Positions 1,184 to 40,291 of a DNA stretch of 64,000 bases are shown in pieces. The position numbers and the translations under genes are program-made. Position 1 is the stretch's first letter. Every line of letters starts with the position of its first letter. Source of the DNA: a bacterium (GTDB taxonomy: Bacteria; Patescibacteriota; Minisyncoccia; Phycocordibacterales; UBA5272); assembly GCA_023267535.1 (NCBI GenBank), contig JAHFNC010000004.1, positions 3,757 through 67,756 on the forward strand, read 5' to 3'. The notes beneath the pieces were generated by a model. It did no database searches and had not been told where the DNA came from. It saw only the letters and a program-made list of their open reading frames with translations.

Positions 1184-2650
1184 ATGAGTAAATTTATGTT
1201 TGAACAAACTTTTAAGAATATAGACGACATCTTACATAAAGATGCAGGATGCGGAAGTGAGCTTGATTATGTTGAACAAACCTCATGGGTACTATTTTTG
1301 AAGTACCTCGATGATTTAGAGAAAGACAAGAAAACAGCGGCTGAACTTGCAGGAAAAAAGTACACCAACATCATATCTACTGAATACAGTTGGACTACGT
1401 GGGCTACACCAAAAGGTAAAGACGGAAAACTTGATCATCATAAAGCCTTAACTGGAGATGATTTAAAAGACTTTGTTGATCTTAAACTTTTTCCTTATCT
1501 TAAGAAATTTAAAACCACAGCTTTAAGTCCAGATACTATTGAATACAAGATTGGTGAGATTTTTTCTGAATTAAAAAATAGAATTCATAGTGGATATAAC
1601 TTACGTGAAGTTATTAATCGTATAGACGAGCTTCGTTTTCGTACTCATGCAGAAAAGCATGAAATGAGCCACTTGTATGAATCTAAAATACAGAACATGG
1701 GGAATGCTGGTCGTAATGGTGGTGAGTACTATACTCCAAGACCACTTATTACTACTATTGTTAAAGTGGTAGCTCCAAAAATTGGAGACACTATTTATGA
1801 TGGTGCAGTAGGTAGTGCAGGATTCTTATGTGAAGCTTTTGATTACCTAAAGAAGAGTAAAAACCTTACAACGAAAGATGTAGAAATTTTACAAAAGAAA
1901 ACTTTTTATGGAAAGGAAAAGAAATCATTAGCATATATTATCGGTACAATGAATATGATTTTACACGGTGTAGAAGCTCCTAATATTATCCATACCAACA
2001 CTCTTGCTGAAAATCTTGCAGATATACAAGAAAAAGATCGTTATAATGTTGTGTTGGCAAACCCACCATTTGGAGGAAAAGAACGAGTAGAGGTACAGCA
2101 GAACTTTCCAATTAAAACAGGAGAAACTGCTTCTCTTTTCTTACAACACTTTATTAAGATATTAAAAGCAGGAGGTAAAGGCGGTGTGGTTATAAAAAAT
2201 ACATTTCTTAGTAATACAGATAACGCTACGGTTAGTTTAAGAAAGTTACTTCTTGAGAATTGTAACCTACATACAGTATTAGACTTACCTGCTGGAACTT
2301 TTACAGGTGCCGGTGTCAAAACAGTCGTACTCTTTTTTGAAAAAGGGTCCTCTACGAAAAAAGTATGGTTCTATCAACTTAACTTAGACAGAAATCTCGG
2401 TAAAACAAATTCACTTAGCGAGAAAGATTTAGAAGATTTTATTAAACTTCAAAAGAATAAAGCAGAAAGTGAAAACTCTTGGAGTATAGATATAAAAAAC
2501 ATAGACCAAAAGACTTTTGATTTAAGTGCAAAGAACCCTAACAAAAAAGAAGAGGTTGCTTTGCGTTCCCCAGAAGAGATTTTGAAAGAGATGAAAGCTT
2601 TAGATAAGGAGAGTGAAAAGATATTAAGCGGTATTATTAAATTGATATGA
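1184..2650 (+). CDS. hsdM: Type I restriction-modification system, N6-adenine DNA methyltransferase subunit M
   Basis: 488 aa. HsdM N-terminal region, SAM-binding 'YDGAVGSAGFL', catalytic 'NPPFGG'. First gene of an M-X-S-R array. Confidence 0.95.
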   Translation: MSKFMFEQTFKNIDDILHKDAGCGSELDYVEQTSWVLFLKYLDDLEKDKKTAAELAGKKYTNIISTEYSWTTWATPKGKDGKLDHHKALTGDDLKDFVDLKLFPYLKKFKTTALSPDTIEYKIGEIFSELKNRIHSGYNLREVINRIDELRFRTHAEKHEMSHLYESKIQNMGNAGRNGGEYYTPRPLITTIVKVVAPKIGDTIYDGAVGSAGFLCEAFDYLKKSKNLTTKDVEILQKKTFYGKEKKSLAYIIGTMNMILHGVEAPNIIHTNTLAENLADIQEKDRYNVVLANPPFGGKERVEVQQNFPIKTGETASLFLQHFIKILKAGGKGGVVIKNTFLSNTDNATVSLRKLLLENCNLHTVLDLPAGTFTGAGVKTVVLFFEKGSSTKKVWFYQLNLDRNLGKTNSLSEKDLEDFIKLQKNKAESENSWSIDIKNIDQKTFDLSAKNPNKKEEVALRSPEEILKEMKALDKESEKILSGIIKLI

Positions 2651-3714
2651 ATGAAAAAAAAGAAGTAAAACATATTTTTATAGATTCGAATATTTTTTTA
2701 GATTTTTATAGATTAGGGAAAGAAGATTTAGAGAAACTTAATCAGTTGATTGACTTTGTTAAAAATGGTGATATTAAAATATATTTAACAAAACAGGTCT
2801 ACGATGAATTTTACAGACACAGAGAAGACACCTTTCAAAAAACATACAAAGGTTTTTTAGACTCAAAAACTGATATTCAGATGAATTCTATTTTTAAGAA
2901 TTATCCAGAATATAAAAAGATTACTCTTTTGAAAAAAGCTTTAGAGAAACTTAAGTCTGACTTAGGTCAAAAAGTAGAAAGTGACATGAGTTCAAAAAGT
3001 TTAATTGCGGATGAGGTTGTGAGAAAAATATTTGAAGCCTCTTTTTATATTGATTCGGATAAGTTTTTAGAAATGGCGATTATAAGACACAGACTTGGAA
3101 ATCCACCAGGTAAAAAAAATACTAGTTATGGAGATGAAATCAACTGGGAAACATTACTAAGTGTGGTTCCTGACGGAGAAAAACTAATAATAGTTAGTAA
3201 CGATGGAGATTACGAAAGTCCAATGTCAGAAAGAAAAATCAACGGCTATTTGGAAGCTGAATGGGATAAAAAAAAGAAATCAAAAATCTATTTATACAAG
3301 TCCCTAAGTTCATTTTTTAGAGAACACAACATTGCTATTGAGTTTGAAATTGAACAAGATAAAAGTTTACTTGTAGAAAATTTGATAAACAGTGGTAGTT
3401 TTATGGTAACTCACGAAGTTATAAGAAGGCTTTCAAAGTATAATTCATTTTCAGACGACCAAATAAAAGGTCTTGCTACAGCTTTACTAGGTAACTCGCA
3501 AGTACGGTCAATTATAGAAGATGATGATGTTAGAACTTTTTATAAAATAAACTTACTGTCTAGGTCTGATATTTTTGACGATGAAATGTGGAGTGAGATA
3601 GAGTCTCTTATTATAGTTAACCCAGTTCAGGTTAATAAAGATATTGAGGATATTATTAAAAGTCTTGATGATAAAATTGATGAAGATATCAATGTGGACG
3701 ACATTCCATTTTAA
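2647..3714 (+). CDS. PIN-like (DUF4935-type) putative nuclease embedded in the type I R-M operon
   Basis: 355 aa. ATG 2647-2649 overlaps the hsdM TGA 2648-2650. 'IFIDSNIFLDF', 'VYDEF', 'GNPPGKKNTSYGDEINWETLL' and 'IIVSNDGDY' give the acidic-residue pattern of PIN-like domains. The C-terminal ~150 aa are unassigned. Only 3 nt separate it from hsdS. Confidence 0.65.
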   Translation: MNEKKEVKHIFIDSNIFLDFYRLGKEDLEKLNQLIDFVKNGDIKIYLTKQVYDEFYRHREDTFQKTYKGFLDSKTDIQMNSIFKNYPEYKKITLLKKALEKLKSDLGQKVESDMSSKSLIADEVVRKIFEASFYIDSDKFLEMAIIRHRLGNPPGKKNTSYGDEINWETLLSVVPDGEKLIIVSNDGDYESPMSERKINGYLEAEWDKKKKSKIYLYKSLSSFFREHNIAIEFEIEQDKSLLVENLINSGSFMVTHEVIRRLSKYNSFSDDQIKGLATALLGNSQVRSIIEDDDVRTFYKINLLSRSDIFDDEMWSEIESLIIVNPVQVNKDIEDIIKSLDDKIDEDINVDDIPF

Positions 3715-3717
3715 TTT

Positions 3718-4839
3718 ATGAAAAAAGAAAACTGGGAAATAAAAAGTTTTGAAGAATGTCTTGAAAAAGTTGTTTATACAAACAAAATTCAAAGAAAAGA
3801 TTTTCTTGATAATGGAAAGCATCCAGTAATTTCACAAGAGAAAGATTTTGTTAATGGGTACTGGGATAATTCTAAAGATTTATTTAAGGTTAGAAAACCA
3901 GTTATAATTTTTGGTGATCATACACAAGTCTTAAAATATGTAGATTTTGATTTTGTTCTTGGTGCTGATGGTGTAAAAATACTTCAGCCTACAAGTGAGC
4001 TAGAACCAAGATTTTTTTACTATTATTTACAAAACATAAATATTGGTAGTTTAGGATACGCAAGACATTACAGATTATTAAAAGAGAGTGAAGTAGAATT
4101 TCCAAAGTCTCTTTTAGAACAGCAACGCATAGTGTCAGTTTTAGATAAAGCATTCGTTGATATATCTAAAGCAAAAGATATTGCTGAACAGAATCTTAAA
4201 AATGCAAAAGAACTTTTTGAAAGTTATTTACAGAGTATGTTTACAAATAAAGGAGATGATTGGGAAGAGAAAACATTAGGCGGTATTGCTTTTGTAAAAA
4301 GTGGAGGAACTCCTTCAAGGTCTAAAAAAGAATACTGGACAGGTAAAATAGCTTGGTATTCGTCGGGTGAATTAAATAATTTGTACACCACAACGCCAGA
4401 AAGATATATTAACGATTTAGCAATTAGTAACTCAAATGCAAAAATCTTTCCAAAAGGTTCTCTTTTAATAGGTATGTATGATACTGCGGCTCTAAAAATG
4501 TCTATATTAGACAGAGACGGTTCTTTTAATCAAGCTATTGCAGGTGTAAAACCTAATGACAAAATTGACTTAACTTTTATTTTACACTCTATCAACTCTA
4601 TCAAACCAGAATTACTTAATTTAAGACGTGGTGTTCGTCAGAAAAATCTAAGTCTTGAAAAGATAAAAAGTATCCCTACCTATGTTCCTCCACTTCAAGT
4701 ACAGAAGAATGTTGTTTCTAAATTAGGAGAACTTTCCACTGAAACAAAAAAACTTGAAGCAATCTATGAACAAAAATTAAATGACTTAGAAGAACTTAAG
4801 AAAAGTATTCTTCAAAAGGTATTTAACGGCGAACTATAA
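3718..4839 (+). CDS. hsdS: Type I restriction-modification system, specificity subunit S
   Basis: 373 aa. Two target-recognition halves, each followed by a conserved helical spacer ('LLEQQRIVSVLDKAF...' and 'LQVQKNVVSKLGEL...'). Confidence 0.9.
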   Translation: MKKENWEIKSFEECLEKVVYTNKIQRKDFLDNGKHPVISQEKDFVNGYWDNSKDLFKVRKPVIIFGDHTQVLKYVDFDFVLGADGVKILQPTSELEPRFFYYYLQNINIGSLGYARHYRLLKESEVEFPKSLLEQQRIVSVLDKAFVDISKAKDIAEQNLKNAKELFESYLQSMFTNKGDDWEEKTLGGIAFVKSGGTPSRSKKEYWTGKIAWYSSGELNNLYTTTPERYINDLAISNSNAKIFPKGSLLIGMYDTAALKMSILDRDGSFNQAIAGVKPNDKIDLTFILHSINSIKPELLNLRRGVRQKNLSLEKIKSIPTYVPPLQVQKNVVSKLGELSTETKKLEAIYEQKLNDLEELKKSILQKVFNGEL

Positions 4840-4860
4840 AAGTGCTATAATGTCAAGATT

Positions 4861-7182
4861 ATGAACGAATCTGAAACAAGGGCAGAGCTAATTGATCCAA
4901 AGCTAAAAGCTTGTGGTTGGGGTGTTGTTGAAGGATCTAAAATACTCCGTGAATACAATATTACTGCTGGTAAAATCCAAACTGGAGGTATAAGAGGAAA
5001 GCTACTTACTGCTGATTATGTATTGGTCTACAAAGGCATAAAATTGGCTGTGGTTGAGGCAAAGAGTGCAAATATAGGAGTTGGTGAGGGTGTTGCACAA
5101 GCCAAGCAATATGCAGAGAAACTAAAAATAGAAACAACCTATTCTACAAACGGAAAAGAGATATACAGTATCTGTATGAAAACTGGTGTTGAGGGTTTGG
5201 TTTCTGGTTATCTCTCACCTGATGAACTTTGGAACAAAACTTTTTCGGTTCAAAATGAATGGAGAGAGAAATTTAGTTCTATTCCTTTTGAAGATAAGAG
5301 TGGCTCTTGGCAATTACGTTATTATCAAGAAATAGCAGTAAAGAATGTTCTTGAATATGTTGCAAATGATAGGGACCGCATTTTGCTCACCTTAGCTACT
5401 GGTACAGGTAAAACAGCTATCGCTTTTCAGATAGTATGGAAACTATTTCAGACAAGATGGAATTTAAAACGTGACGGTTCTCGTCGTCCTCGTATTTTAT
5501 TTTTAGCAGATAGAAACATATTAGCCGACCAAGCATACAACTCTTTTTCTTCATTTCCAGAAGATGCTTTGGTGCGTATTAATCCTAAAGAAATAAGTAA
5601 GAAAGGAAGTGTGCCTACTAATGGGTCTATTTTCTTTACTATCTTTCAAACCTTTATGAGTGGTAAAGATGCCGAGGGAAACCCTGCACCATACTTCGGA
5701 GAATATCCATCTGATTACTTTGATTTTATTATTATAGACGAATGTCATCGTGGCGGTGCAAACGATGAAGGAAACTGGAGAGGTATCTTGGAATATTTTT
5801 CTCCTGCTGTGCAATTAGGTTTAACAGCTACCCCAAAGCGTAAAGATAATGTCGATACATATAAATATTTTGGTGAGCCAGTATATATTTATTCTCTTAA
5901 AGAGGGTATTAATGATGGATTTCTTACACCTTTTAAGGTTAAGCGTATTAAGACAACATTAGACGATTATATTTATACAAGTGATGACCAAATCATCGAA
6001 GGGGAAATCGAGGAAGGAAAACTTTATACCGAACCTGATTTTAATAAGATAATTGAAATTAAAGCGAGAGAAGAAAAGCGTGTGAAGGTATTTATGGACG
6101 AAGCAAATCAAAATGAAAAAGCTATTGTCTTTTGTGCTACTCAAGATCATGCGGCTGCGGTTCGTGATTTAATTAATCAATACAAGAAAAGTGCTGATCC
6201 AAATTATTGTGTCCGTGTTACAGCAAATGATGGAGAGATAGGCGAACAATTTTTAAGAGAATTCCAAGATAACGAAAAAACTATACCAACTATTTTAACG
6301 ACATCACAGAAACTTTCAACTGGAGTAGATGCTAGAAATATACGTAACATTGTACTCATGCGACCAGTGAACTCTATGATTGAATTTAAGCAAATTGTAG
6401 GGCGTGGTACACGTTTATTTGATGGTAAGGAATTCTTTACTATTTATGACTTTGTGGATGCTTATCACCATTTTGCGGATCCTGAATGGGATGGAGAACC
6501 GATCAGTCCAGTAGATGATGAACCTACGGAACCTAAACCACCAAAAGGGGTAGAGGGTGAACCACCTTTTCCTCCAGAACCACCAACAGAACCAAATAAG
6601 AAACTTAAGATTAAATTACGAGATGGAAAAGAACGTGAAATACAACACATGATAGCAACTTCTTTTTGGGGTGCAGACGGTAAACCTATTTCTGTGGAAG
6701 AGTTTTTACAAAACCTGTTTGGGACACTGCCTAGTCTTTTTAAGGGTGAAGAAGAGTTGCGAGAGATATGGAGTAATCCAATAACAAGAAAAAGTTTGTT
6801 AGAAAAACTAGACGAGGCTGGGTATGGAAAAGACGAACTAACTACATTACAGAAATTAATTGACGCTGAAAATAGTGATCTTTTTGATGTGTTGGAATAT
6901 GTATTTAATAGTGACGTTAAACCGATACCAAGAGAGATAAGAGTAGAAACATCACAGGAAACTATTTTTGAATCCCTTAATGATAAACAAAAAGAATTTA
7001 TTGAATTTGTGTTGAGTAAATATATTGAAACAGGTGTAGAAGAATTAGACCAAGAGAAACTACCAATACTTCTTACTAATAAATATCAGTCGCTAGAAGA
7101 TGCAAAAGATACACTAGGTGATATTGATTTGATTCGTTCGATTTTCTTCAAATTCCAAGAGAAACTATACGCAAAAGTATAA
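4861..7182 (+). CDS. hsdR: Type I restriction enzyme, R (helicase/endonuclease) subunit, EcoEI-R-like
   Basis: 773 aa. N-terminal 'SETRAELIDPKL..GW' region. SF2 motifs 'LATGTGKT', 'IIIDECHRG', 'LGLTATP', 'QIVGRGTR'. Pro-rich linker, then a C-terminal domain resembling the EcoEI R C-terminus ('DLFDVLEYVF...'). Confidence 0.93.
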   Translation: MNESETRAELIDPKLKACGWGVVEGSKILREYNITAGKIQTGGIRGKLLTADYVLVYKGIKLAVVEAKSANIGVGEGVAQAKQYAEKLKIETTYSTNGKEIYSICMKTGVEGLVSGYLSPDELWNKTFSVQNEWREKFSSIPFEDKSGSWQLRYYQEIAVKNVLEYVANDRDRILLTLATGTGKTAIAFQIVWKLFQTRWNLKRDGSRRPRILFLADRNILADQAYNSFSSFPEDALVRINPKEISKKGSVPTNGSIFFTIFQTFMSGKDAEGNPAPYFGEYPSDYFDFIIIDECHRGGANDEGNWRGILEYFSPAVQLGLTATPKRKDNVDTYKYFGEPVYIYSLKEGINDGFLTPFKVKRIKTTLDDYIYTSDDQIIEGEIEEGKLYTEPDFNKIIEIKAREEKRVKVFMDEANQNEKAIVFCATQDHAAAVRDLINQYKKSADPNYCVRVTANDGEIGEQFLREFQDNEKTIPTILTTSQKLSTGVDARNIRNIVLMRPVNSMIEFKQIVGRGTRLFDGKEFFTIYDFVDAYHHFADPEWDGEPISPVDDEPTEPKPPKGVEGEPPFPPEPPTEPNKKLKIKLRDGKEREIQHMIATSFWGADGKPISVEEFLQNLFGTLPSLFKGEEELREIWSNPITRKSLLEKLDEAGYGKDELTTLQKLIDAENSDLFDVLEYVFNSDVKPIPREIRVETSQETIFESLNDKQKEFIEFVLSKYIETGVEELDQEKLPILLTNKYQSLEDAKDTLGDIDLIRSIFFKFQEKLYAKV

Positions 7183-7200: not shown

Positions 7201-9744
7201 TTAGATCATTCTTTTCTTTATGTTTCGTACAAGATCAGTGATTTCTTTCTTTGCAATATCAGGGATTTTAAATATAGAAACATCAGTTTTTAATAACCAT
7301 TCGGCACATTCCTTTCTATCATAATCCATACTTTCAATGTGGTTAGAAATTTCAATGGCTGTATGTCTACTTAGTCCGAGATTGATAAGAGAAACTTGGG
7401 TCCTTTCAAATACCCCAAACTCGAGCCACATATTTAAATCAGGGACGGAATCAAGAAACTCAGGGTGATTCATACTAAGATAATACTTTAAAATATCAAT
7501 ATAACATGAAGAATACTTTGCAAATTTAAACCTAACATATTCTTCTATATCCCCCATTGTGTTTCTGATAATTAGTGAAAGCTTTTTCTTGGGATCTCTA
7601 TTCTCCCAGTACCTAATATTAGACTTTATTATTCTAGCAAGTGGATATCCTCTCATCCAATTAGTTACTAGAATGGTGTAGTAAGGTGCGAGCGCTTCGT
7701 GGTCCCCAGAAAGAATTCTACTTATTCTTTTTATAATTGCTATGTAGCAATTAGACGCATCTAAATCGTCAGGTAAAACAGGAATTAGGTTTTTTATGTC
7801 ATCATCATAATTTACAAAATAATCAAAGAGTTTTTGTTGAGATATGGGGTTTATACCGGGATTTCTAAAAATTATATCATCTGGTATTTGAAGTGACTCT
7901 TTTACTTTTGAACACTCTACCTCAAGTTCATTAATGAAATCTTCGTCAAGAGGTTCATTTTTTAAGGAAGAGTTTTTAAGGAATTTTGTGAAATAATAAC
8001 TAAAAGCATATTCATGGTTAGAGCTAGAAGTTTCTTTAAAGTTACCTCTTATGTATTCAAGAAGATCAGTTTTATTTTCTGAAGCTTCAGTGATTGCTCT
8101 CTTAATAAAGTGCTTTGTTTTTTCTCTGATAGGTATATTATCCCAATCTTCAGGATCAATACATATAATATTTCCTTGAAATTCCTTTTTTAGGCGACCA
8201 GCTCGACCAGCGAGATTCCAAAAATCAGCTCCTGACATCGGTACTTTATTTCCTCTTTTTGGTTTTCTTATAAAAATTGATTTTGCTGGAAGGTTAACTC
8301 CTTCGAGAAGGGTTGAAGTACATACTAAGTATTTAATATGACCCTCAGAATATAATCTTTCAATTTCTTTTCTAATAACAAGTGGCATGTTGCCGTAATG
8401 AAAAGCAATCTTTCTTTCTAGAACTTTAGCTAAAGCATATTCTGGATGAATTAATTTCTTTATTAAATCAATCAATTCATTTATTTGATCATCTTCTGTT
8501 TCCTCTTTAGTTCCGACAAGATCAAAAAGTTTTTCTGAAGCATCTTCAGCATCTGCTTGTCCATTTACATATATCATGTTGCCACCTTCATTTGAACCAA
8601 GTAAGTAGCAAAAAGTAGACAGTTTTTCTTTTTCGTTTAAAGTTTGATTTAAGTTAATTTGCCCCAGTGGAGTAGATATATTTTTTAGACATAGGTTTAC
8701 GCTCCACTGCTTAGGGTGCCCCACTAATTGTGATACCCAAATTAAATTTTGATTTACGGCAATATATTCAGTAACTATAGTAGACCTATCTTCCTGGTTA
8801 CCTAAGCCATCCAGTAGAACCCCAGGGTTTTGAGAGAATGGACTACAGAATAGTATTTTTATGGCTGGTAGTCGAGTTGTAAGCTCTTCAATTTTTTGTT
8901 GTAAAAGAATACCTCTACCACCATCTCCAATTTTTTGAGCTTCGTCAATGACAAGAAAATCAATCTTAAAAGTGGGATTGTCACTTAGAAACCAATGTAA
9001 TCTTTCTTGCGTAAATATAAATAGAGATGGTTTGTTTAAGTCCATTTCATCAGGTGACTGAGGTACAGAACTTAGGTAAACAGAATAGTCTTCCTTATTA
9101 AACAATTGATCAGAAAAATCTTGCTCTACTTGATTGATAAGTGCTCTGGTAGGGACTATGTAGACAATATTTTTTGGATTCTTTTTGTCGTTTAGTTGCT
9201 CTAAAACAAAAGTATTTAGAATAAATGATTTTCCAGAAGAGGTTGGAGCAGAAGCACTTAAATAGTTTGAACTGTATGCTTTATCGTAAAAGTCTTTTTG
9301 AAATTTATTAAGATATATTGGCTCTTCATTTGTTTTTGTAAAAATGATATGTTCCACATCTCTTCTTGCATTTTCAATTTTAAAAGGTAACGGTATATCA
9401 TTATCGTAATCTGAAGGTAGATATTTCTTATGGATAGCAAGATTAATAGCTGGTTTGTTTGTTAACTTATGCAAAATGATAGATGCTCCAATTCTTTGGT
9501 TCTTCTTTGTTTCTGCATCTGTTAAACAACACTGGGCAATCCTTAATGCTGCATCTTGACAATCTGGGTTATCTGAATGTGATATTATACTTGCACACAT
9601 TAATAAATGATCCCAGTTTGGTATGTAAAATAAGTCAGATTGTTGATTTAAAATTGGGAAAAGTTTTATTACCGAATTTCTAATAATAGATAATAGGTCT
9701 TGTTGAAAGCTTTTTAAGTTATAAACTTTTTCAGGAAGGGTCAT
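7201..9744 (-). CDS. hamB: HamB-like SF2 (DEAQ-box) helicase, Hachiman-type defence
   Basis: 847 aa. Walker A 'SAPTSSGKSF', 'LVIDEAQK', 'CTSTLLEGVNLPA', 'LAGRAGR'. Its start overlaps the upstream DUF1837-like gene by 14 nt. Confidence 0.8.
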   Translation of the reverse strand: MTLPEKVYNLKSFQQDLLSIIRNSVIKLFPILNQQSDLFYIPNWDHLLMCASIISHSDNPDCQDAALRIAQCCLTDAETKKNQRIGASIILHKLTNKPAINLAIHKKYLPSDYDNDIPLPFKIENARRDVEHIIFTKTNEEPIYLNKFQKDFYDKAYSSNYLSASAPTSSGKSFILNTFVLEQLNDKKNPKNIVYIVPTRALINQVEQDFSDQLFNKEDYSVYLSSVPQSPDEMDLNKPSLFIFTQERLHWFLSDNPTFKIDFLVIDEAQKIGDGGRGILLQQKIEELTTRLPAIKILFCSPFSQNPGVLLDGLGNQEDRSTIVTEYIAVNQNLIWVSQLVGHPKQWSVNLCLKNISTPLGQINLNQTLNEKEKLSTFCYLLGSNEGGNMIYVNGQADAEDASEKLFDLVGTKEETEDDQINELIDLIKKLIHPEYALAKVLERKIAFHYGNMPLVIRKEIERLYSEGHIKYLVCTSTLLEGVNLPAKSIFIRKPKRGNKVPMSGADFWNLAGRAGRLKKEFQGNIICIDPEDWDNIPIREKTKHFIKRAITEASENKTDLLEYIRGNFKETSSSNHEYAFSYYFTKFLKNSSLKNEPLDEDFINELEVECSKVKESLQIPDDIIFRNPGINPISQQKLFDYFVNYDDDIKNLIPVLPDDLDASNCYIAIIKRISRILSGDHEALAPYYTILVTNWMRGYPLARIIKSNIRYWENRDPKKKLSLIIRNTMGDIEEYVRFKFAKYSSCYIDILKYYLSMNHPEFLDSVPDLNMWLEFGVFERTQVSLINLGLSRHTAIEISNHIESMDYDRKECAEWLLKTDVSIFKIPDIAKKEITDLVRNIKKRMI

Positions 9745-10714
9745 AGGTTATCCCAAGTGCCTCCAAGAAGTGCTTTCTAAACTCTTCCACAGAAGGAAAT
9801 GGAAGCAGAAAAACATGTATATCAAAAGTTTCAAGATTTGTATGTTTTGAAATATGTTTGACAACATTTTTTGACCAACCTTCTATTTCTTTGTTAATCT
9901 TTTCTTTTATTTGTTCAGTGGTTTCTGTGTTTGCAACGCTTGGGTATTTATCATAATCAAATCCAATGAGGCACACACCTTTATACCTTACCTGATTATG
10001 GAGAGGGTCGTCTTTGTCCAAATATTTTAATAGAGCAACTTCCAATCTCTCATCTATTACACTCAAGTTGTCCCTCATTAATTGTAAGTCTCTTTCTGCT
10101 GGAGCAGATATTCCTCCATCTGATAAAAGAAACTCTTTAAGACTTATGAAACATTTAGAGATGCCATCGTTTAAATCTTTGTACAGTTTTGATTCACCCC
10201 AATATAAAGATAGAATATCCCTTCCTTCTTCATTTAACTCCACAGAAACATGAATACCATCAGCTCCGTTCACATGGAGTTCTGGGTTTGTTTTTAATGG
10301 CATCTTACATAGTAGTTGGGGAATTTTTAGATACTCCTGAATAAGAATATAGAGAAGCATTTCACCACCTTCACCTGTCTTCTTTAGTGAAGTAAAAAGA
10401 CTTTTTGCTTTTTCAATAAGCTCGTAAGTTTTTGTGGTTGTGTTATGTTTTGTATCATATTCTTTTGCCACCTCATATTCTTTTCTTGGAATTGCATAAT
10501 CAGCTACATGCTTTGCCACAAAACGTGCAAAGTCCTTAGTGCGAGGTCTACCATTTCCGTCTAAAGTTAAAAAGTAACAATGTGAGGTTGCTTTAGTATC
10601 TTTTAAATTAACATTTGATATAACTTCAGTTATATAAGTATTTATTTCTTGTTTGCTTGTTCTCAGAAGATCAGCAATAAGTTCTGCAATATTATCTTGG
10701 TTAGCAGTAGTCAT
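9731..10714 (-). CDS. hamA: DUF1837 / HamA-like PD-(D/E)xK nuclease, Hachiman-type defence
   Basis: 327 aa. 'GEGGEMLLYIL' and 'NGADGIHV...(21 aa)...YWGESKLY' (D152...E174-x-K176), as I recall for DUF1837. Coupled to the helicase gene. Confidence 0.72.
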   Translation of the reverse strand: MTTANQDNIAELIADLLRTSKQEINTYITEVISNVNLKDTKATSHCYFLTLDGNGRPRTKDFARFVAKHVADYAIPRKEYEVAKEYDTKHNTTTKTYELIEKAKSLFTSLKKTGEGGEMLLYILIQEYLKIPQLLCKMPLKTNPELHVNGADGIHVSVELNEEGRDILSLYWGESKLYKDLNDGISKCFISLKEFLLSDGGISAPAERDLQLMRDNLSVIDERLEVALLKYLDKDDPLHNQVRYKGVCLIGFDYDKYPSVANTETTEQIKEKINKEIEGWSKNVVKHISKHTNLETFDIHVFLLPFPSVEEFRKHFLEALGITYDPS

Positions 10715-10720
10715 ATTTTA

Positions 10721-11200
10721 TTAATTTAAGAATCTACTTATTGGTTCGTTGAGCAGCGATTCAGCAATTTCTATCAGAATATTATCTCTAAAGCTTTGAA
10801 AATCTTTAGCTCCATGGAAGGTGTTGCATCGTATTTGATATATACACTTCATAATATTCGTTACATCCTTTATATCAATAAGTAAAATACCCTCTAAGTT
10901 ATTTTTTGTGGGTCTCATATCCCTAATAGGTGTCTCCTTTTTTAAATCTTCTAATCTTTCTAAATATTTGGGAGAAGACCAGGTTTCTATAAAAATATTT
11001 TTTAGAATATTATCATTATTATAAAACCAGTTTAATTTATGACTGTCTGTGATATTTGCTGCATTACTTCGGAAAGACTCGTCTGTAATGTACGCGTCAA
11101 AAATCATCCAATAAATAATGAATCGAATCCATGCATCAGCTGTATTTTCATCGGCTTTCCTTTTCCATGTTCTAAGTCTTTCTATAAATTCAGGGTCCAT
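10721..11200 (-). CDS. HEPN-like small protein (putative RNase), first gene of the Hachiman-like operon
   Basis: 159 aa. 'IRCNTFHG' fits the HEPN Rx4-6H motif (R124..H129). N-terminal 'AWIRFIIYWMIFDAY' helix. Its stop codon lies 6 nt upstream of the hamA-like start. Confidence 0.5.
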   Translation of the reverse strand: MDPEFIERLRTWKRKADENTADAWIRFIIYWMIFDAYITDESFRSNAANITDSHKLNWFYNNDNILKNIFIETWSSPKYLERLEDLKKETPIRDMRPTKNNLEGILLIDIKDVTNIMKCIYQIRCNTFHGAKDFQSFRDNILIEIAESLLNEPISRFLN

Positions 11201-11263
11201 ATACTCATTTTAGCATAAAACAATAAATCTTTCATTTACGCAAGAGTGATGACTTAAAAATCT

Positions 11264-11289
11264 AAAAAGCACCCGAAAGGGTGCTTTTT
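11264..11289 (-). terminator. Rho-independent terminator (bidirectional shape) ending the tRNA-Gln transcript
   Basis: A5-GCACCC-gaaa-GGGTGC-T5. Confidence 0.7.
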
Positions 11290-11382
11290 AGATTTGGCTG
11301 GCTACACTCAGTAGCTATGCAGTAACTGTATAGAGCTCTCATACGTTTCGACGCTCTCCGAGCGCCAGAACTGCGCTCGCAT
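11290..11382 (-). other. GC-rich structured spacer between tRNA-Gln and its terminator (possible small RNA)
   Basis: Minus-strand hairpins CGAGCGC-agttctg-GCGCTCG and GCTAC-tgagt-GTAGC, plus an AGAGCTCT palindrome. Visibly more GC-rich than its surroundings. Not a cloverleaf. Confidence 0.3.
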
Positions 11383-11456
11383 TGGCTGGGGTACATGGAC
11401 TCGAACCACGATACTCAGGACCAAAACCTGATGTCCTACCATTAGACGATACCCCA
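11383..11456 (-). tRNA. tRNA-Gln (anticodon UUG), CCA encoded
   Basis: 74-nt cloverleaf folded by hand. Acceptor TGGGGTA/TACCCCA (U1-A72), D arm GTCT/GGAC, anticodon stem TCAGG/CCTGA with loop TTTTGGT, T arm CGTGG-TTCGAGT-CCATG, discriminator G73, CCA. Confidence 0.93.
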
Positions 11457-11882: not shown

Positions 11883-12011
11883 ATTTCAAACATTTTTTAA
11901 GAAAATATCAATATTTACACTTATTAAAAATAAATATAAAATGGCAATCAGTTTGTGTTAACGGGGGATGTTCTTTTATTTTTTTTGAATCAGGAGTGGA
12001 GGGAGATAATA

Positions 12012-13034
12012 ATGAACAAGCAAGCTGTGCTCTCTATTGTTCCAAATATTCCAAACGCTGAAGACGAAGATCCTGGCGTCGCCCTATTAATATCGGCCGA
12101 CCAGCTTCTTTTTGATCCAAATCAACCAAGAAAGAGATACACGAAAAAAGGTCTTGAGAAATTGGCTAAAAGCATTCAAGACCAAGGTTTGCAACAGCCG
12201 GTGGTCGTTACCTTTGCTTATCGTAAGAAAGGCATAGATTACTATTACATCAAGTTCGGCGAAAGGCGTTATCGCGCTCATATTTTGCTTGGCTACAAAA
12301 ACGTTCCTTGTCTTGTGAAGAAGGGGACCTACGACGGCAAGCTTGATGTGGAACGAGTGCTTGCGCAGACTTCGGAAAATAATTTGCGCGAACCACATTC
12401 GCACAGCGAGATGATTAACGTCCTTCGTTTGGTCGTTGAAGACGAACGAGAAAAGTCTGATGGCGTGATTGGCTACATCGGCAAAGCTCAAGAAAGATTT
12501 GCCACAGCTCTTGGCTATACCGCTGAGGCCACCAGAAGGTATCACGTTTTGGCTAATCTTCATTCGGAGTTAGTTGAGATGTTGGATATTGAAGACGAAG
12601 AAGAAGGGGACGAACGAGAAAAGCTTAACTTCAGCGTTGCTCTTTCTTTGGCTAGAGCACCAAAAGATGCTCAGCTTGGGATTCTTGAAAGGTCAAAGCC
12701 TCACTTTGAAAAGTCTCACAATCACGGCATTGCTTTTGTTTCTGAACAAGCAAGGTCTGTTCGCGAGAGTCGTGGTGAAAAGATAGTCGGCAGGAAGCCG
12801 AGCGAATCAATTGACCTTGTCAGGAAATTTCTAACCTTCACCAACAATCGCCACGATTTGGTCTTTGGGCAAATGAAGCCAGCTGAGATAAAAGCCATTT
12901 TGGCTTCGGCGAGCGTGACCACCGTTGATGTTTTGCTTAACGCAGTCATTATGGCCGCAACAAACCTGAAATCACTTCAGGCACTGATTCAAGAAAGGAG
13001 AGATTACAATTATAGAGAATTCAGAAAGAAATAA
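12012..13034 (+). CDS. ParB/Srx N-terminal-domain protein (ParB-like nuclease domain), orphan
   Basis: 'LLFDPNQPRK', 'IQDQGLQQPVVV' and 'KFGERRYRAH' (GERRxRA arginine patch). RBS GGAGGGAG lies upstream of ATG 12012, so the track start at 11955 is probably too early. No parA nearby. Confidence 0.75.
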   Translation: MNKQAVLSIVPNIPNAEDEDPGVALLISADQLLFDPNQPRKRYTKKGLEKLAKSIQDQGLQQPVVVTFAYRKKGIDYYYIKFGERRYRAHILLGYKNVPCLVKKGTYDGKLDVERVLAQTSENNLREPHSHSEMINVLRLVVEDEREKSDGVIGYIGKAQERFATALGYTAEATRRYHVLANLHSELVEMLDIEDEEEGDEREKLNFSVALSLARAPKDAQLGILERSKPHFEKSHNHGIAFVSEQARSVRESRGEKIVGRKPSESIDLVRKFLTFTNNRHDLVFGQMKPAEIKAILASASVTTVDVLLNAVIMAATNLKSLQALIQERRDYNYREFRKK

Positions 13035-24514: not shown

Positions 24515-26401
24515 ATGACTGTAAGTGAAATTAGAGCAAAATTTTTATCATATATGGAAATGAAGGGGCACAAAGTTGTCTTTTCTTCGTCATTAAAACC
24601 AGAGAATGACCCAACCACACTCTTTACTGGCTCCGGAATGCAACCAATGCTTCCATATTTGCTTGGTCAGCCTCACGAATTGGGAAAAAGGATCGCTGAT
24701 TCGCAAAAATGTTTTCGTTCACAAGATATAGATGATGTTGGAGATAACCGCCACACCACTTTCTTTGAAATGCTTGGAAATTGGTCATTTGGTGATTATT
24801 TTAAGGGAGAAGAAATCGTCTGGATGTTTAATTTTTTAATTGGTGAACTTCACCTTGACCCAAAAAACTTCTACGTAACTTGTTTCAAAGGAAATTCTAA
24901 TTTAAATATTCCAAGAGATGATGTATCGGCTGACTTGTGGAAAAAAACTTTCAAACAAAAAGGATTAGATGTAAAAGTTGGAGAGAATCCAGAAGTTGAT
25001 GGAATAAAAGAAGGAGAACATATTTTCTATTATGACGAGAGAAAAAATTGGTGGTCTCGTTCTGGAATTCCAAAGAATATGCCAGAAGGTGAGCCTGGGG
25101 GGCCAGATTCTGAAATGTTTTATGACTTTGATTCTGATTTATCAAAAAAGATTCACGCTAATTCAAAATTTAAAGATAGTGTTTGTCATGTGAACTGTGA
25201 TTGTGGAAGATTTTTGGAAATTGGAAACAATGTTTTTATGGAATACAAGAAAGTTGGAAATGGCTTTGAAGAATTGCCACAGAAAAATGTTGACCACGGC
25301 TCTGGACTAGAAAGACATGCTTGTGCTGTAAATAATGACGAAGATATTTTTAATATCGATGTATTTAATGAAGCAAAAAATACTATAGAAAGATTATCTG
25401 GTAAAAAATATCGCGATGATGAAAAAGTAACTTATGCTTATCGTGTAATTCTTGATCATCTTCGTGCCGGAACATTTTTAATTGGAGATGATGTTTTACC
25501 AGGGAATAAAGATCAGTCATATTTCGTGCGCCGACTTATTCGTCGTTCAGTGAGATTCGCCAGAAATTTAGGAATTGATAAAAATTTTACAAAATCAATC
25601 GCGCTTTCATTTATTGAAGTTTATAAAGACGAATATAAAAATCTAAACGAAAAGAAAGAAATCATTTTATTTGAAATGGAAAAAGAAGAGACTAAATTTA
25701 GAGCCACTCTTGAAAAAGGAATAAAAGAATTCGAGAAAATCGGTAGTAGAGACATTTCAGGACACAATGCATTTGATTTACTTCAATCTTACGGATTTCC
25801 AATTGAACTTACAATTGAACTAGCAAAAGAAAGAGGTTTAAATGTTGATTTAGTTGGATTTGAAGAAGAAAAGAAAAAGCATTCTGAAAGTTCTCGCACT
25901 GCTTCCGCTGGAAAGTTTAAAGGAGGACTAGGAGGAGACGGAGAAATAGAAACAAAATATCATACAGCTACACACTTATTACACGAAGCATTACGCCAAG
26001 TACTTGGAGAACACGTGGAACAAAAAGGTTCAAACATCACATCCGAAAGATTACGTTTTGATTTTTCTCATAATGAAAAAATGACAGACGAAGAAAAGAA
26101 AAAAGTTGAAGATTTGGTAAACGAAAAAATAAATGAAGCATTGCCAGTGAAAAGAGAAGAGATTAAGAAAGATGAGGCCATAAGTAGAGGCGCAATTGGA
26201 CTTTTCGGTGATAAATATGGCGACGTGGTTACGGTTTATAGAATCGGAACTGGCGAAAAAAGAGGGGATACAAATTTGTTTTCAATGGAATTATGTGGTG
26301 GTCCTCATGTTGCCAACACCAAAGAACTTGGTCACTTTAAAATAGTAAAAGAAGAAGCAGTCTCTGCCGGTGTTCGTCGAATAAAAGCGATTTTGTCTTA
26401 A
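24515..26401 (+). CDS. alaS: alanine--tRNA ligase, short form without a C-Ala domain
   Basis: 'FTGSGMQPM', 'FFEMLGNWSFGDYFK', and editing-domain 'HTATHLLH' and 'CGGPHV'. 628 aa. Confidence 0.93.
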   Translation: MTVSEIRAKFLSYMEMKGHKVVFSSSLKPENDPTTLFTGSGMQPMLPYLLGQPHELGKRIADSQKCFRSQDIDDVGDNRHTTFFEMLGNWSFGDYFKGEEIVWMFNFLIGELHLDPKNFYVTCFKGNSNLNIPRDDVSADLWKKTFKQKGLDVKVGENPEVDGIKEGEHIFYYDERKNWWSRSGIPKNMPEGEPGGPDSEMFYDFDSDLSKKIHANSKFKDSVCHVNCDCGRFLEIGNNVFMEYKKVGNGFEELPQKNVDHGSGLERHACAVNNDEDIFNIDVFNEAKNTIERLSGKKYRDDEKVTYAYRVILDHLRAGTFLIGDDVLPGNKDQSYFVRRLIRRSVRFARNLGIDKNFTKSIALSFIEVYKDEYKNLNEKKEIILFEMEKEETKFRATLEKGIKEFEKIGSRDISGHNAFDLLQSYGFPIELTIELAKERGLNVDLVGFEEEKKKHSESSRTASAGKFKGGLGGDGEIETKYHTATHLLHEALRQVLGEHVEQKGSNITSERLRFDFSHNEKMTDEEKKKVEDLVNEKINEALPVKREEIKKDEAISRGAIGLFGDKYGDVVTVYRIGTGEKRGDTNLFSMELCGGPHVANTKELGHFKIVKEEAVSAGVRRIKAILS

Positions 26402-31528: not shown

Positions 31529-31873
31529 ATGAACTACACAATTGACGCCACAAATAAACCCCTAGGAAGACTTGCTTCAGAAGTAGCATCTATTTTGAAT
31601 TCCAAAAATGATGTTAACTTCGTTAAGAACAGAGTAGAAGAAATGACTGTCACTGTAACTAATGCTTCTAAAGTAAAAGTAACTGGCAATAAAATGAAAG
31701 ACAGTGTCCATAAGTCATTTTCTGGATATCCAAGTGGATTAAAAGAAAGAACACTTAACTATGTTGTTGCTAATAAAGGTTTTAGTGAAATTATAAGACA
31801 CGCTATAAAAGGAATGCTTCCAAAGAATAAATTACAAGATATTCGTATGAAGAATTTAACAATTGAAGAATAA
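31529..31873 (+). CDS. rplM: 50S ribosomal protein L13
   Basis: 'IDATNKPLGRLASEVA...GMLPKN'. Confidence 0.93.
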   Translation: MNYTIDATNKPLGRLASEVASILNSKNDVNFVKNRVEEMTVTVTNASKVKVTGNKMKDSVHKSFSGYPSGLKERTLNYVVANKGFSEIIRHAIKGMLPKNKLQDIRMKNLTIEE

Positions 31874-31878
31874 AGATT

Positions 31879-32286
31879 ATGACTACTGATACAAAAAATC
31901 GCTATATTGAAGGAATTGGTCGCAGAAAGACTGCTATTGCTCGTGTTCGTATAACTCCTGCTACTAAAGGGTCTTTCACTATAAATGATAAAGACATAAA
32001 AGTATATTTTGATACTAATGATTTACAAGCAATCGCTCAAAGTGCCATTACCAAAACTGAAATCAAAGATAAATTTTTAATAACAGTAAAAGTTTCTGGT
32101 GGTGGAATACACGCACAGGCTGAAGCAATTCGTCACGGACTTTCTCGTGCTTTAGTTATAAGAGACGAAGATATAAAAAACACCCTAAAGAAATTAGGTT
32201 TCCTAAAGAGAGATCCAAGACAAGTTGAAAGAAAGAAATTCGGACTTAAGAAGGCTCGTAAAGCTCCAACATGGAGTAAGAGATAG
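31879..32286 (+). CDS. rpsI: 30S ribosomal protein S9
   Basis: 'GIGRRKTAIARVRI...GGG..AQAEAIRHGLSRAL'. Confidence 0.96.
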   Translation: MTTDTKNRYIEGIGRRKTAIARVRITPATKGSFTINDKDIKVYFDTNDLQAIAQSAITKTEIKDKFLITVKVSGGGIHAQAEAIRHGLSRALVIRDEDIKNTLKKLGFLKRDPRQVERKKFGLKKARKAPTWSKR

Positions 32287-38884: not shown

Positions 38885-40291
38885 ATGCGAATTTATATAA
38901 AAGATTTAAATAAATATATTGGACAAGAGGTCAAGATATCGGCTTGGGTTGATGTTAGACGAGATCAAGGAAAAATGATTTTCGTCGATTTAAGAGACTC
39001 AACTGGTAAAGTTCAAGGTGTGATTCTTCCGTCACACGAAAAAGCCCTTCTGGTTGGCGAAAAAATACGTACAGAGTGGGTTTTAAACGTAACTGGTCAA
39101 GTAAACCAAAGACCAGAAAAAAACAGGAAATCAGAGGTTTTAAACGGAGATATCGAACTTGAAATTTTAGACATTGAAATTCTAAACGAGGCCGATACTC
39201 CAGCTTTTGATATTTCCACCGATGGTTATGAAGTAAATGAAGATGCTCGTTTTAGAAAGAAGTATCTTGATAATCGCCGTGCTCGTATACAAAGAAATAT
39301 TACAATGCGTCACAAGGTAAATTTATTTATTCGTGAATATTTAGACAAGGAAAACTTTTTAGAAATAGAAACACCGCTTTTAACTAATCCAACACCCGAA
39401 GGATCAAGAAGCTATATTGTTCCATCAAGAATTTATCCTGGCGAATTTTATGCACTTCCACAGTCGCCACAACAATACAAACAACTTTTAATGTCTTCTG
39501 GTTTTGATAGATATTTCCAAATTGCCAGATGTATGCGCGACGAAGACACGAGAGGTGATAGACAACCAGAATTTACTCAAATGGACATGGAGATGAGTTT
39601 TGTGACTCGTGAAGATGTTATGAAAGTAAACGAAGACCTTCTTATAAAATTAGTTACCGAATTATTCCCAGAGAAAAAAATTCAAACTGTGCCATTTCCA
39701 GTTTTCTCATACAAAGAGGTAATGGAAAAATACGGTACTGATAAGCCAGACTTGAGAGAAGATAAAGAAGATAAAAATTTATTAGCTTTCTGTTGGGTTA
39801 TTGATTTCCCAGCATTTGAAAGAACGGGGGAAGATAATGTTGACGGAACAGGAGAGTGGACATTCACTCATAATCCATTCACTGGTGTAAAAGATGATTT
39901 TATTTCTGATTTGAGAGAAAAGAAAAATATTGAAAATATTATTTCTACACAATACGACATTGCAATGAATGGTTATGAAATTGGTGGTGGAGGAATCAGG
40001 TTACACAAAGCGGAAGATTTAAAAAAAGTTTTTGAAATAATGGGGTATAGCGACGAAAGAATAGAGACAAATTTCGGACAAATGCTTATGGCCTTCAATG
40101 AAGGAACTCCACCGCACGGAGGTATTGCTTGGGGATTAGACAGATTACTGATGATATTACTTAATGAACCAAACATCCGTGAAGTTATGGCCTTTCCAAA
40201 AACAGGAGAGGGTAAAGACTTATTAATGCAAGCACCGTCAAAACCAGCAGATAAGGTGTTAAAGGAATTGAAGATTAGTATTAATAAATAA
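38885..40291 (+). CDS. aspS: aspartate--tRNA ligase, short bacterial-type form lacking the GAD insertion
   Basis: OB-fold N-terminus and class II motifs 'FQIARCMRDEDTRGDRQPEFTQMDMEMSF' and 'GGGGIRLH'. 468 aa. Confidence 0.93.
   Translation: MRIYIKDLNKYIGQEVKISAWVDVRRDQGKMIFVDLRDSTGKVQGVILPSHEKALLVGEKIRTEWVLNVTGQVNQRPEKNRKSEVLNGDIELEILDIEILNEADTPAFDISTDGYEVNEDARFRKKYLDNRRARIQRNITMRHKVNLFIREYLDKENFLEIETPLLTNPTPEGSRSYIVPSRIYPGEFYALPQSPQQYKQLLMSSGFDRYFQIARCMRDEDTRGDRQPEFTQMDMEMSFVTREDVMKVNEDLLIKLVTELFPEKKIQTVPFPVFSYKEVMEKYGTDKPDLREDKEDKNLLAFCWVIDFPAFERTGEDNVDGTGEWTFTHNPFTGVKDDFISDLREKKNIENIISTQYDIAMNGYEIGGGGIRLHKAEDLKKVFEIMGYSDERIETNFGQMLMAFNEGTPPHGGIAWGLDRLLMILLNEPNIREVMAFPKTGEGKDLLMQAPSKPADKVLKELKISINK

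What the first reader, a model, noticed from the sequence alone, without database searches (positions are those of the whole stretch)
7201..11200. Three-gene Hachiman-like operon with an extra promoter-proximal HEPN-like gene
Three co-directional minus-strand genes are packed with a 6-nt gap and a 14-nt overlap:
- A 159-aa helical protein carrying an Rx4H motif (IRCNTFHG, R124..H129), typical of HEPN RNases.
- A 327-aa DUF1837/HamA-like protein with D152...E174-x-K176.
- An 847-aa SF2 helicase with Walker A APTSSGKS and a DEAQ box.

The second and third genes form the canonical two-gene Hachiman pair (HamA nuclease plus HamB helicase). The HEPN-like gene in first position is not part of that description. 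It would add a putative RNA-targeting effector or regulator to a DNA-sensing helicase-nuclease complex. Three-gene Hachiman variants have been catalogued, but I cannot verify from memory whether their third gene is a HEPN, so novelty is uncertain.
Basis: partly seen in the sequence, partly recalled or inferred. Interest (0 to 1): 0.8.

Follow-up and report, generated by a model that had tools for sequence, protein, structure and literature searches.

The report
Hachiman operon with portable HEPN gene
A standard two-gene Hachiman anti-phage system is co-transcribed with a small predicted RNase from a large unnamed HEPN family, but that gene looks like a portable defence-island add-on found beside many different nucleases, not a regular third Hachiman component.

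Summary
Three minus-strand ORFs sit at 7201-9744, 9731-10714 and 10721-11200, with the stated 14-nt overlap, 6-nt gap and motifs. The last two are a clear Hachiman HamA/HamB pair.

The 159-aa protein is very probably a minimal HEPN-fold protein:
- The AlphaFold model has pLDDT 94.
- R124 and H129 are the only invariant columns across 113 relatives, and they lie where HEPN catalytic residues are expected.

It is not the known HamC (DUF3223), and it is not a conserved Hachiman partner:
- Of 78 distinct family members, only the window's own locus has HamAB.
- The others sit against NERD, SIR2, SMEK, Mrr, HNH, type I/IIG/III R-M, nucleotidyltransferase-like or other HEPN genes.
- The closest HamAB relatives (63-77% identity) carry a small HTH_17 gene or nothing in that slot. 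One of them is an orthologous tRNA-Gln locus.

Most likely this is a portable RNase that landed in front of HamAB inside a tRNA-flanking defence island and acts as a separate or back-up abortive-infection effector. It is a new, mostly Patescibacteria (CPR) family of a known kind, and of moderate interest.

The parts
10721..11200 (-). 159-aa minimal HEPN-fold protein and the promoter-proximal gene. Predicted helices: H1 3-18, H2 23-43 (conserved D35), a family-specific insert at 44-112 (three short helices plus the conserved SPIxDMRP loop), H3 113-128 and H4 137-158.
10811..10834 (-). Codons for I123-G130 (IRCNTFHG), the Rx4H motif (R124, H129). [quoted passage not shown]
   Evidence: Position. 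R124 and H129 are the only invariant columns in 113 sequences of 20-44% identity. N126, G130, Y121 and K132 are over 90% conserved. The placement matches the HEPN definition in PMC3710099.
9731..10714 (-). hamA: DUF1837 nuclease effector of Hachiman, with D152 and E174-x-K176.
   Evidence: Pfam PF08878 4.1e-63 and PADLOC HamA1 4.4e-121. Motifs.
7201..9744 (-). hamB: SF2 helicase sensor of Hachiman (Walker A 166-173, DEAQ 267-270). It overlaps hamA by 14 nt.
   Evidence: PADLOC HamB1 5.3e-285, Pfam DEAD and Helicase_C. Motifs.
11207..11235 (-). Promoter-like site. An extended -10 (TGcTAAAAT, 11215-11207) ends 6 nt before the ATG, with a weak -35 (ATGAAA). This implies a leaderless or near-leaderless mRNA. 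It is a consensus match only.
   Evidence: 9/12 match with TG. Sequence read. The number of such sites in the region is no higher than chance, so this is inference.
11258..11295 (-). Perfect 17-bp intrinsic-terminator hairpin after tRNA-Gln. It insulates the HEPN-hamA-hamB unit from upstream transcription.
   Evidence: RNA fold. An orthologous hairpin with compensatory stem changes is present in L103/L104.
11383..11456 (-). tRNA-Gln(UUG), with its 3' end facing the operon. It is the landmark of a tRNA-flanking variable island.
   Evidence: ARAGORN and Rfam. The same tRNA lies upstream of HTH_17-hamAB in L103/L104 and upstream of family HEPN genes without HamAB in L026 and L110/L111.
1184..7182 (+). 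Context: a type I R-M system (hsdM, embedded PIN-domain gene, hsdS, EcoAI-family hsdR) convergent on hamB. It is the rest of the defence island.
   Evidence: NCBIfam restrict_EcoAI 8e-239. Gene calls with Pfam in the identical locus L020.

Best explanation
The locus is an ordinary type I Hachiman system. HamB is a helicase that senses damaged or aberrant DNA, and HamA is a DUF1837 nuclease that it licenses. A third, unrelated gene has come to sit as the first cistron of the same transcription unit. That gene encodes a stand-alone HEPN domain, predicted to be a metal-independent RNase. By analogy with other HEPN enzymes, it would form a homodimer whose composite active site is built from R124 and H129, with D35 from helix 2 nearby. 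It belongs to a large family without a Pfam model of its own (the window protein matches none), found mostly in Patescibacteria (CPR). The family behaves as a portable defence-island module. It is found tightly packed, often with overlapping stop and start codons, against many different DNA-targeting or NAD-targeting defence genes, and frequently next to tRNA genes. In the window lineage it occupies the slot between the tRNA-Gln terminator and hamA, which closely related HamAB loci fill with a small HTH_17 gene. The most likely function is a second, RNA-directed abortive-infection arm co-expressed with HamAB. It could act independently or in the PrrC manner, held latent by its neighbour and released when that neighbour is inhibited. 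What is shown: gene structure, family membership of HamAB, HEPN fold and motif, lack of conserved linkage, and the cassette swap. What is inferred: RNase activity, dimerisation, co-transcription, a defence role, and any cross-talk with HamAB.
Against: The HEPN assignment rests on one structure-comparison method at moderate Z. Foldseek against PDB and BFVD gave nothing below E = 1. Profile searches of PDB sequences found nothing. No Pfam HEPN model is hit by the window protein. No RNase activity, dimer or toxicity has been shown. A constitutively active minimal HEPN would be toxic, and no antitoxin is evident in the window. Translational coupling distances (6 nt) and the replacement of a presumed regulator gene could equally mean a dedicated role with HamAB. 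About a third of the neighbours examined have no recognisable function, and a few are housekeeping (PrmC-like methyltransferase, TspO, DnaG), so the defence enrichment is a census of 40 neighbours and not a statistical test.
Confidence: 0.58

Rival explanations
1. This is a true three-component Hachiman variant. The HEPN protein would be a physical subunit or dedicated effector of this HamAB complex, adding RNA cleavage to DNA sensing.
For: The gene is on the same strand, 6 nt from hamA, with no terminator between them, and a terminator plus promoter-like site lies just upstream. The identical three-gene arrangement was recovered in three independent metagenome assemblies (L020-L022). Other family members are likewise stop/start-coupled to their neighbours.
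Against: There was no second occurrence among 77 other distinct family members. HamAB relatives at 63-77% identity lack it. HamAB alone is sufficient in characterised systems (PMC13064477; PMC8565338). L020-L022 are 100% identical copies of the same organism's locus and are not independent evolutionary events.
Confidence: 0.12
2. The HEPN protein is a regulator that functionally replaces the HTH_17 gene. It would control expression or toxicity of HamAB post-transcriptionally, for example by cleaving the operon mRNA, rather than acting as an antiviral effector.
For: It sits exactly in the slot held by a 62-66 aa HTH_17/MerR-type gene in three related HamAB lineages, including the orthologous tRNA-Gln locus. 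There is precedent for upstream modules tuning Hachiman expression (PezAT, PMC13064477).
Against: The family pairs with many unrelated neighbours and is sometimes alone, which is hard to reconcile with a system-specific regulator. HTH_17 in the relatives may be an excisionase for the adjacent serine recombinase and not a HamAB regulator. L106 has HamAB with no upstream gene at all.
Confidence: 0.1
3. The HEPN gene is a selfish or stand-alone toxin-type or addiction gene, or a non-defence CPR protein, and is merely adjacent. Its co-transcription with HamAB would be an accident of insertion at a tRNA-flanking hotspot, with no functional relation.
For: Some members have no obvious partner (L007, L008, L110, L112). 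The gene lies near tRNA genes in seven lineages (six with the tRNA upstream in the same orientation, one downstream). Some neighbours are housekeeping. The family is very abundant in reduced CPR genomes.
Against: There is a strong excess of nuclease, R-M and other defence-type genes among tightly coupled neighbours. Overlapping stop/start codons with those neighbours suggest co-expression and not random adjacency.
Confidence: 0.13
4. The protein has the HEPN or four-helix fold but is not a nuclease. It would be a ligand- or nucleotide-binding adaptor, as in the substrate-binding domains of nucleotidyltransferases.
Against: The absolute invariance of exactly R and H, with N126 and G130 nearly invariant, is the catalytic signature of the RNase branch (PMC3710099). 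No nucleotidyltransferase is encoded next to it in the window.
Confidence: 0.07

Closest known systems
Hachiman type I (HamA DUF1837 nuclease + HamB SF2 helicase)
   Same: Genes 2 and 3 match full-length HamA and HamB models. They have the D...ExK nuclease motif, Walker A and DEAQ, and overlapping reading frames.
   Different: Here a third gene is co-transcribed upstream. Close relatives have an HTH_17 gene or nothing there.
Hachiman type II of PADLOC (HamA, HamB and HamC = DUF3223, NTF2-like)
   Same: A three-gene layout with an extra small gene next to hamAB (PMC8565338).
   Different: The extra gene is all-helical HEPN-like. It matches neither DUF3223 nor any PADLOC HamC model.
R-M-linked HEPN RNases of the PrrC/RloC type, and the 16 or more HEPN clades linked to R-M systems (Anantharaman et al. 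2013, PMC3710099)
   Same: A predicted HEPN RNase is encoded beside DNA-targeting defence enzymes. The family repeatedly neighbours restriction nucleases and helicases, and the published model of a latent back-up RNase fits.
   Different: It is only 159 aa, with no ABC-ATPase or other regulatory domain. It is a distinct sequence family with no Pfam match for the window member. No partner-dependent latency has been shown.
HEPN-MNT (HepT/MntA) toxin-antitoxin toxins
   Different: There is no adjacent MNT nucleotidyltransferase in the window. Only 2 of about 40 examined neighbours in the family are nucleotidyltransferase-like. The large conserved insert between H2 and H3 is also different.
Extended Hachiman clusters in Streptococcus (PezAT-HamAB, abiJ-HamAB; Tian et al. 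2025, PMC13064477)
   Same: An unrelated toxin-type module sits directly upstream of hamAB, possibly in one operon. abiJ is an abortive-infection gene, and from my own knowledge (not tested here) AbiJ carries a HEPN domain.
   Different: It is a different protein family, HamAB type and phylum. There the upstream module tunes expression and is not needed for defence, and that has not been tested here.
DzbB of the Dazbog system / Pfam MauJ (PF17419)
   Same: This is the only sequence-level relationship detected. 72 of 84 members match the C-terminal 45 positions of the PADLOC DzbB model (best 4e-7), and 18 of 113 distant members match MauJ (best 6e-9).
   Different: The matches are local or confined to distant members. 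The window protein itself scores 1e-4 on DzbB and nothing on MauJ. No DzbA partner is present, and neither family has an established mechanism.

Membership tests
Hachiman (type I) | HamA with a DUF1837 domain | tested here: met
   PF08878 at 4.1e-63 over the full profile, and PADLOC HamA1 at 4.4e-121.
Hachiman (type I) | HamA nuclease residues (D...ExK) | tested here: met
   D152, E174 and K176 are present. The equivalent residues are essential in S. thermophilus HamA (PMC13064477).
Hachiman (type I) | An adjacent HamB SF2 helicase with intact ATPase motifs | tested here: met
   PADLOC HamB1 at 5.3e-285, Walker A at 166-173, DEAQ at 267-270, and a 14-nt overlap with hamA.
Hachiman (type I) | Anti-phage activity | not testable with these tools
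   This needs a phage challenge in a heterologous host.
Hachiman type II (PADLOC) | The third gene is HamC (DUF3223, NTF2-like) | tested here: not met
   The 159-aa protein has no Pfam hit at E <= 1 and no PADLOC HamC hit. The model is all-alpha. Definition from PMC8565338.
HEPN superfamily | [quoted passage not shown] | tested here: met
HEPN superfamily | [quoted passage not shown] | tested here: met
   R124 lies inside H3 (113-128) and H129 is the first loop residue. Both are invariant in 113 sequences. Definition in PMC3710099.
HEPN superfamily | A conserved acidic or polar residue in helix 2 near the motif | tested here: met
   Position 35 is N, D or E in 112 of 113 sequences and lies in H2. 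Its spatial proximity to the motif was not measured.
HEPN superfamily | RNase activity and a dimeric composite active site | not testable with these tools
   This needs biochemistry or a multimer prediction.
HEPN-MNT toxin-antitoxin | A cognate minimal nucleotidyltransferase antitoxin encoded adjacently | tested here: not met
   The neighbours in the window are tRNA-Gln and hamA. No nucleotidyltransferase domain was found in the scanned flanking ORFs.
PrrC/RloC-type anticodon nucleases | An N-terminal ABC-ATPase regulatory domain fused to the HEPN domain | tested here: not met
   The protein is 159 aa and consists of the HEPN domain only.
Dazbog (DzbA + DzbB) | A full-length DzbB match and an adjacent DzbA | tested here: not met
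   Only profile positions 285-329 of 341 match, at E = 1e-4. No DzbA hit was found among the neighbouring genes scanned.
Pfam MauJ (PF17419) | A match above the gathering score | tested here: inconclusive
   The window protein has no hit. 18 of 113 distant relatives hit MauJ, best 6.4e-9. I could not verify whether MauJ belongs to the HEPN clan.

The most novel reading that the evidence does not exclude
The 159-aa family is a universal plug-in guard module of Patescibacteria. It would be a minimal HEPN RNase that couples translationally and physically to whichever DNA- or NAD-targeting defence enzyme it is encoded beside (HamAB, NERD, SIR2, SMEK, Mrr, type I/IIG/III R-M). The partner would keep it latent until a phage inhibits that partner. 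Its conserved H2-H3 insert (SPIxDMRP loop) would serve as the generic docking or sensing surface. In this locus it would make Hachiman a dual DNA/RNA-targeting system.
Probability: 0.2. Interest if true: 0.65.

Novelty: new member of a known kind. Interest (0 to 1): 0.35.

Why it matters
The finding documents a large family of about 1000 clusters at 50% identity. It is essentially unannotated, consists of minimal HEPN-like proteins concentrated in Patescibacteria (CPR), and repeatedly sits against defence nucleases. That makes it a candidate for a new abortive-infection or guard gene family in organisms whose immunity is poorly known. It also shows that the promoter-proximal slot of one Hachiman subclade is exchangeable (HTH_17, HEPN or empty) at an orthologous tRNA-Gln hotspot. 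This is a clean natural example of modular shuffling in defence islands. It does not change the picture of how Hachiman works, because HamAB relatives lack the gene and HamAB is known to be self-sufficient.

Tried and rejected
- **HamC identity:** rejected, because HamC is DUF3223 and the protein has no Pfam or HamC hit.
- **Sequence-level link to solved structures:** profiles A2 and A3 against PDB sequences gave only chance hits.
- **Foldseek:** nothing below E = 1 against PDB or BFVD. The AFDB libraries were unavailable.
- **Fusion partners as functional clues:** ten longer family members gave only weak or uninformative N-terminal hits (8xMP membrane domain, marginal GNAT).
- **Conserved partner gene:** clustering of adjacent same-strand neighbours gave almost only singletons, so there is no conserved two-gene system.
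- **Divergent HamA/HamB in family loci:** a 120-sequence HamA HMM and permissive HamB phmmer found none.
- **Second family copy in the window:** only a chance-level 11.8-bit hit at 31762-32022.
- **Organism name:** cluster look-ups returned no names. The window's genome was not among the GTDB representatives matched. The CPR assignment is inferred from relatives and from truncated AlaRS and AspRS.
- **DzbB literature:** only that a dzbB deletion could not be transformed, possibly because of toxicity. No domain information was obtained.
- **MauJ as a HEPN family:** no supporting literature found.
Full report
**Observation.** All are on the minus strand, with a 14-nt overlap and a 6-nt gap. Every quoted motif is at the quoted residue: IRCNTFHG at 123-130, HamA D152 and E174-x-K176, HamB Walker A at 166-173 and DEAQ at 267-270.

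**HamA and HamB.** The 327-aa protein covers the whole Pfam HamA/DUF1837 profile (4e-63) and PADLOC HamA1 (4e-121). The 847-aa protein covers PADLOC HamB1 end to end (5e-285), with DEAD and Helicase_C domains. This is a standard type I Hachiman pair.

**The 159-aa protein is not the known third Hachiman gene.** It has no Pfam or NCBIfam match. PADLOC's type II Hachiman adds HamC, a DUF3223/NTF2-like protein (PMC8565338), and this protein is not that.

**Evidence that it is a HEPN-fold protein.**
- A profile search found 294 homologues, and an exhaustive search found about 1000 representative clusters at E <= 1e-3. Named sources are almost all Patescibacteria/CPR: Gracilibacteria, Paceibacterota, Buchananbacteria, Zambryskibacteria, Minisyncoccia, Magasanikbacteria and Daviesbacteria.
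- An AlphaFold2 model built on 84 sequences is very confident (pLDDT 94.2, pTM 0.90) and all-helical.
[quoted passage not shown] It also describes a conserved acidic residue in helix 2 and a variable insert between helices 2 and 3 (PMC3710099).
- The model fits point by point. H2 is 23-43 and carries D35. The insert is 44-112. H3 is 113-128 and ends with R124. H129 is the first loop residue, and H4 is 137-158.
- In an alignment of 113 representatives at 20-44% identity, the only invariant columns are R124 and H129. Position 35 is N, D or E in 112 of 113, and N126, G130, Y121 and K132 are nearly invariant.

**Caveats on the HEPN call.** Foldseek found nothing significant in PDB or BFVD. Sequence profiles find no solved relative. 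The only sequence-level links are local or remote. 72 of 84 members hit the C-terminal part of PADLOC DzbB, and 18 of 113 hit Pfam MauJ. I rate HEPN fold with a catalytic RxxxxH at about 0.8.

**Is it part of Hachiman? Evidence from the small-protein side.**
- I collected 105 loci carrying family members, which represent 78 distinct proteins. Of these, 47 have at least 1 kb downstream and 53 have at least 1 kb upstream.
- A HamA HMM built from 120 homologues and a HamB phmmer search find HamAB only in L020-L022. Those are 100% identical copies of the window's own locus from other assemblies.
- Adjacent same-strand neighbours cluster almost entirely into singletons, yet many are stop/start-coupled to the family gene.
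- Identified neighbours include the following:
  - NERD, twice independently.
  - SIR2_2, SMEK_N and Mrr_cat.
  - HNH, twice.
  - Type IIG R-M, twice.
  - A type III Res-like helicase, in three loci.
  - A type I R-M operon.
  - N6_N4 methylase.
  - PADLOC candidate PDC-S42.
  - Other HEPN families (Hypoth_Ymh, AbiU2).
  - Nucleotidyltransferase-like proteins (DUF6932, GrpB).
- A few neighbours are housekeeping (PrmC-like, TspO, DnaG), and about a third are unknown.

**Is it part of Hachiman? Evidence from the HamA side.**
- The closest HamA homologues (63-78% identity; HamB 64-71%) have a 62-66 aa HTH_17/MerR-type gene overlapping or abutting hamA in three lineages, and nothing in a fourth.
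- The family HMM finds nothing in those loci.
- They ride on elements with serine recombinases, terminases and ParB-methylases.

**The cassette swap.**
- DNA homology between the window and these relatives covers about 7241-10684 (hamB and hamA), stops about 30 nt inside hamA's 5' end, and resumes at the tRNA-Gln gene (89% identity to L103/L104).
- The stretch just downstream of the tRNA is alignable. It includes a perfect terminator hairpin (window 11258-11295) whose stem differs by compensatory changes.
- The exchanged segment is therefore exactly the promoter plus small gene between the terminator and hamA. That segment is HEPN here and HTH_17 in L103/L104.
- Family HEPN genes also lie downstream of tRNA-Gln(UUG) in L026 and L110/L111, without any HamAB. 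L110 shares the Dus-DnaX-tRNA-Gln neighbourhood with L103.
- Three further members lie just downstream of other tRNAs.
- Base composition of the HEPN gene does not stand out from HamAB or the host.

**Context of the window.** The window is chromosomal, with AlaRS, DnaK, AspRS, GluRS, NrdD, PcrA and NifS. Convergent on hamB is an EcoAI-family type I R-M operon with a PIN-domain gene wedged between hsdM and hsdS. The operon therefore lies in a tRNA-flanking defence island. An extended -10 (TGcTAAAAT) ends 6 nt before the ATG of the HEPN gene. That would give a leaderless or near-leaderless transcript, but such consensus sites are no more frequent here than in shuffled sequence.

**Interpretation.** The best reading is a canonical HamAB system that has acquired, as its first cistron, a member of a portable family of minimal HEPN RNases. 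The general principle has been established since 2013: HEPN RNases are encoded beside DNA-targeting defence enzymes as a second, suicidal line, with PrrC as the paradigm (PMC3710099). Unrelated toxin-type modules upstream of hamAB (PezAT, abiJ) have also been described (PMC13064477). What is new is the family itself, which is unnamed, large and CPR-centred, and this particular pairing. The pairing is not conserved, HamAB relatives work without it, and no evidence ties the protein mechanistically to HamAB. I therefore classify it as a new member of a known kind and not as a new Hachiman type, with moderate interest. The most novel reading still open is that the family is a generic plug-in guard that docks onto varied partners through its conserved insert. 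I give that roughly 0.2.

Noticed in passing
window 1184-7182 (+): A type I R-M operon (hsdM 1184-2650, hsdS 3718-4839, EcoAI-family hsdR 4861-7182) has a 355-aa PIN_12/PIN_8 gene (2647-3714) wedged between hsdM and hsdS with overlapping or abutting frames. This is a second putative RNase attached to a DNA-targeting system in the same island. It is convergent on hamB with an 18-nt gap.
   Followed up: partly
window 11258-11456 (-); L103 4521-4800; L104 381-660: tRNA-Gln(UUG) is followed by a perfect 17-bp terminator hairpin. Both are orthologous in the closest HamAB relatives, and the hairpin is preserved through compensatory stem changes.
   Followed up: yes
L026 8886-10041; L110 5327-6471; L111 7-1151; L016, L025, L044: Family HEPN genes sit just downstream of tRNA genes in the same orientation in six lineages. 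Three of these are tRNA-Gln(UUG). Whether this reflects island hotspots or a link to the RNase's substrate is unknown.
   Followed up: partly
L103-L105, L107-L108: The HamAB subclade closest to the window is carried on small elements with a large serine recombinase, and in some cases a terminase and ParB/N6_N4 methylase genes. A 62-66 aa HTH_17/MerR-like gene overlaps the hamA start. It could be an excisionase or a HamAB regulator.
   Followed up: partly
window 11955-13034 (+): A ParB_N-domain gene has GC 0.44 and GC3 0.44, against 0.34 and about 0.23 for the rest of the window. It is probably recently acquired foreign DNA lying beyond the tRNA from the operon.
   Followed up: no
L065 940-2632; L076 4379-5494; L081 6141-7351: Some family members are sandwiched between other conflict-system genes: HNH endonuclease upstream plus a DUF6932/Polbeta nucleotidyltransferase downstream (L065), HEPN_AbiU2 immediately upstream (L076), and a Hypoth_Ymh protein overlapping downstream (L081).
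   Followed up: no
L019 817-1388; L102 4345-4775: In a Bryobacterales bog MAG, the family member most similar to the window protein outside CPR (51% identity) is split into two overlapping ORFs. This suggests a frameshifted pseudogene or an assembly error.
   Followed up: no
window 24515-26401 and 38885-40291 (+): AlaRS is only 628 aa (matching the short PRK01584 form), and AspRS is 468 aa with a gap relative to the bacterial model. This is consistent with a reduced CPR-type genome. No source gave the organism's name.
   Followed up: no
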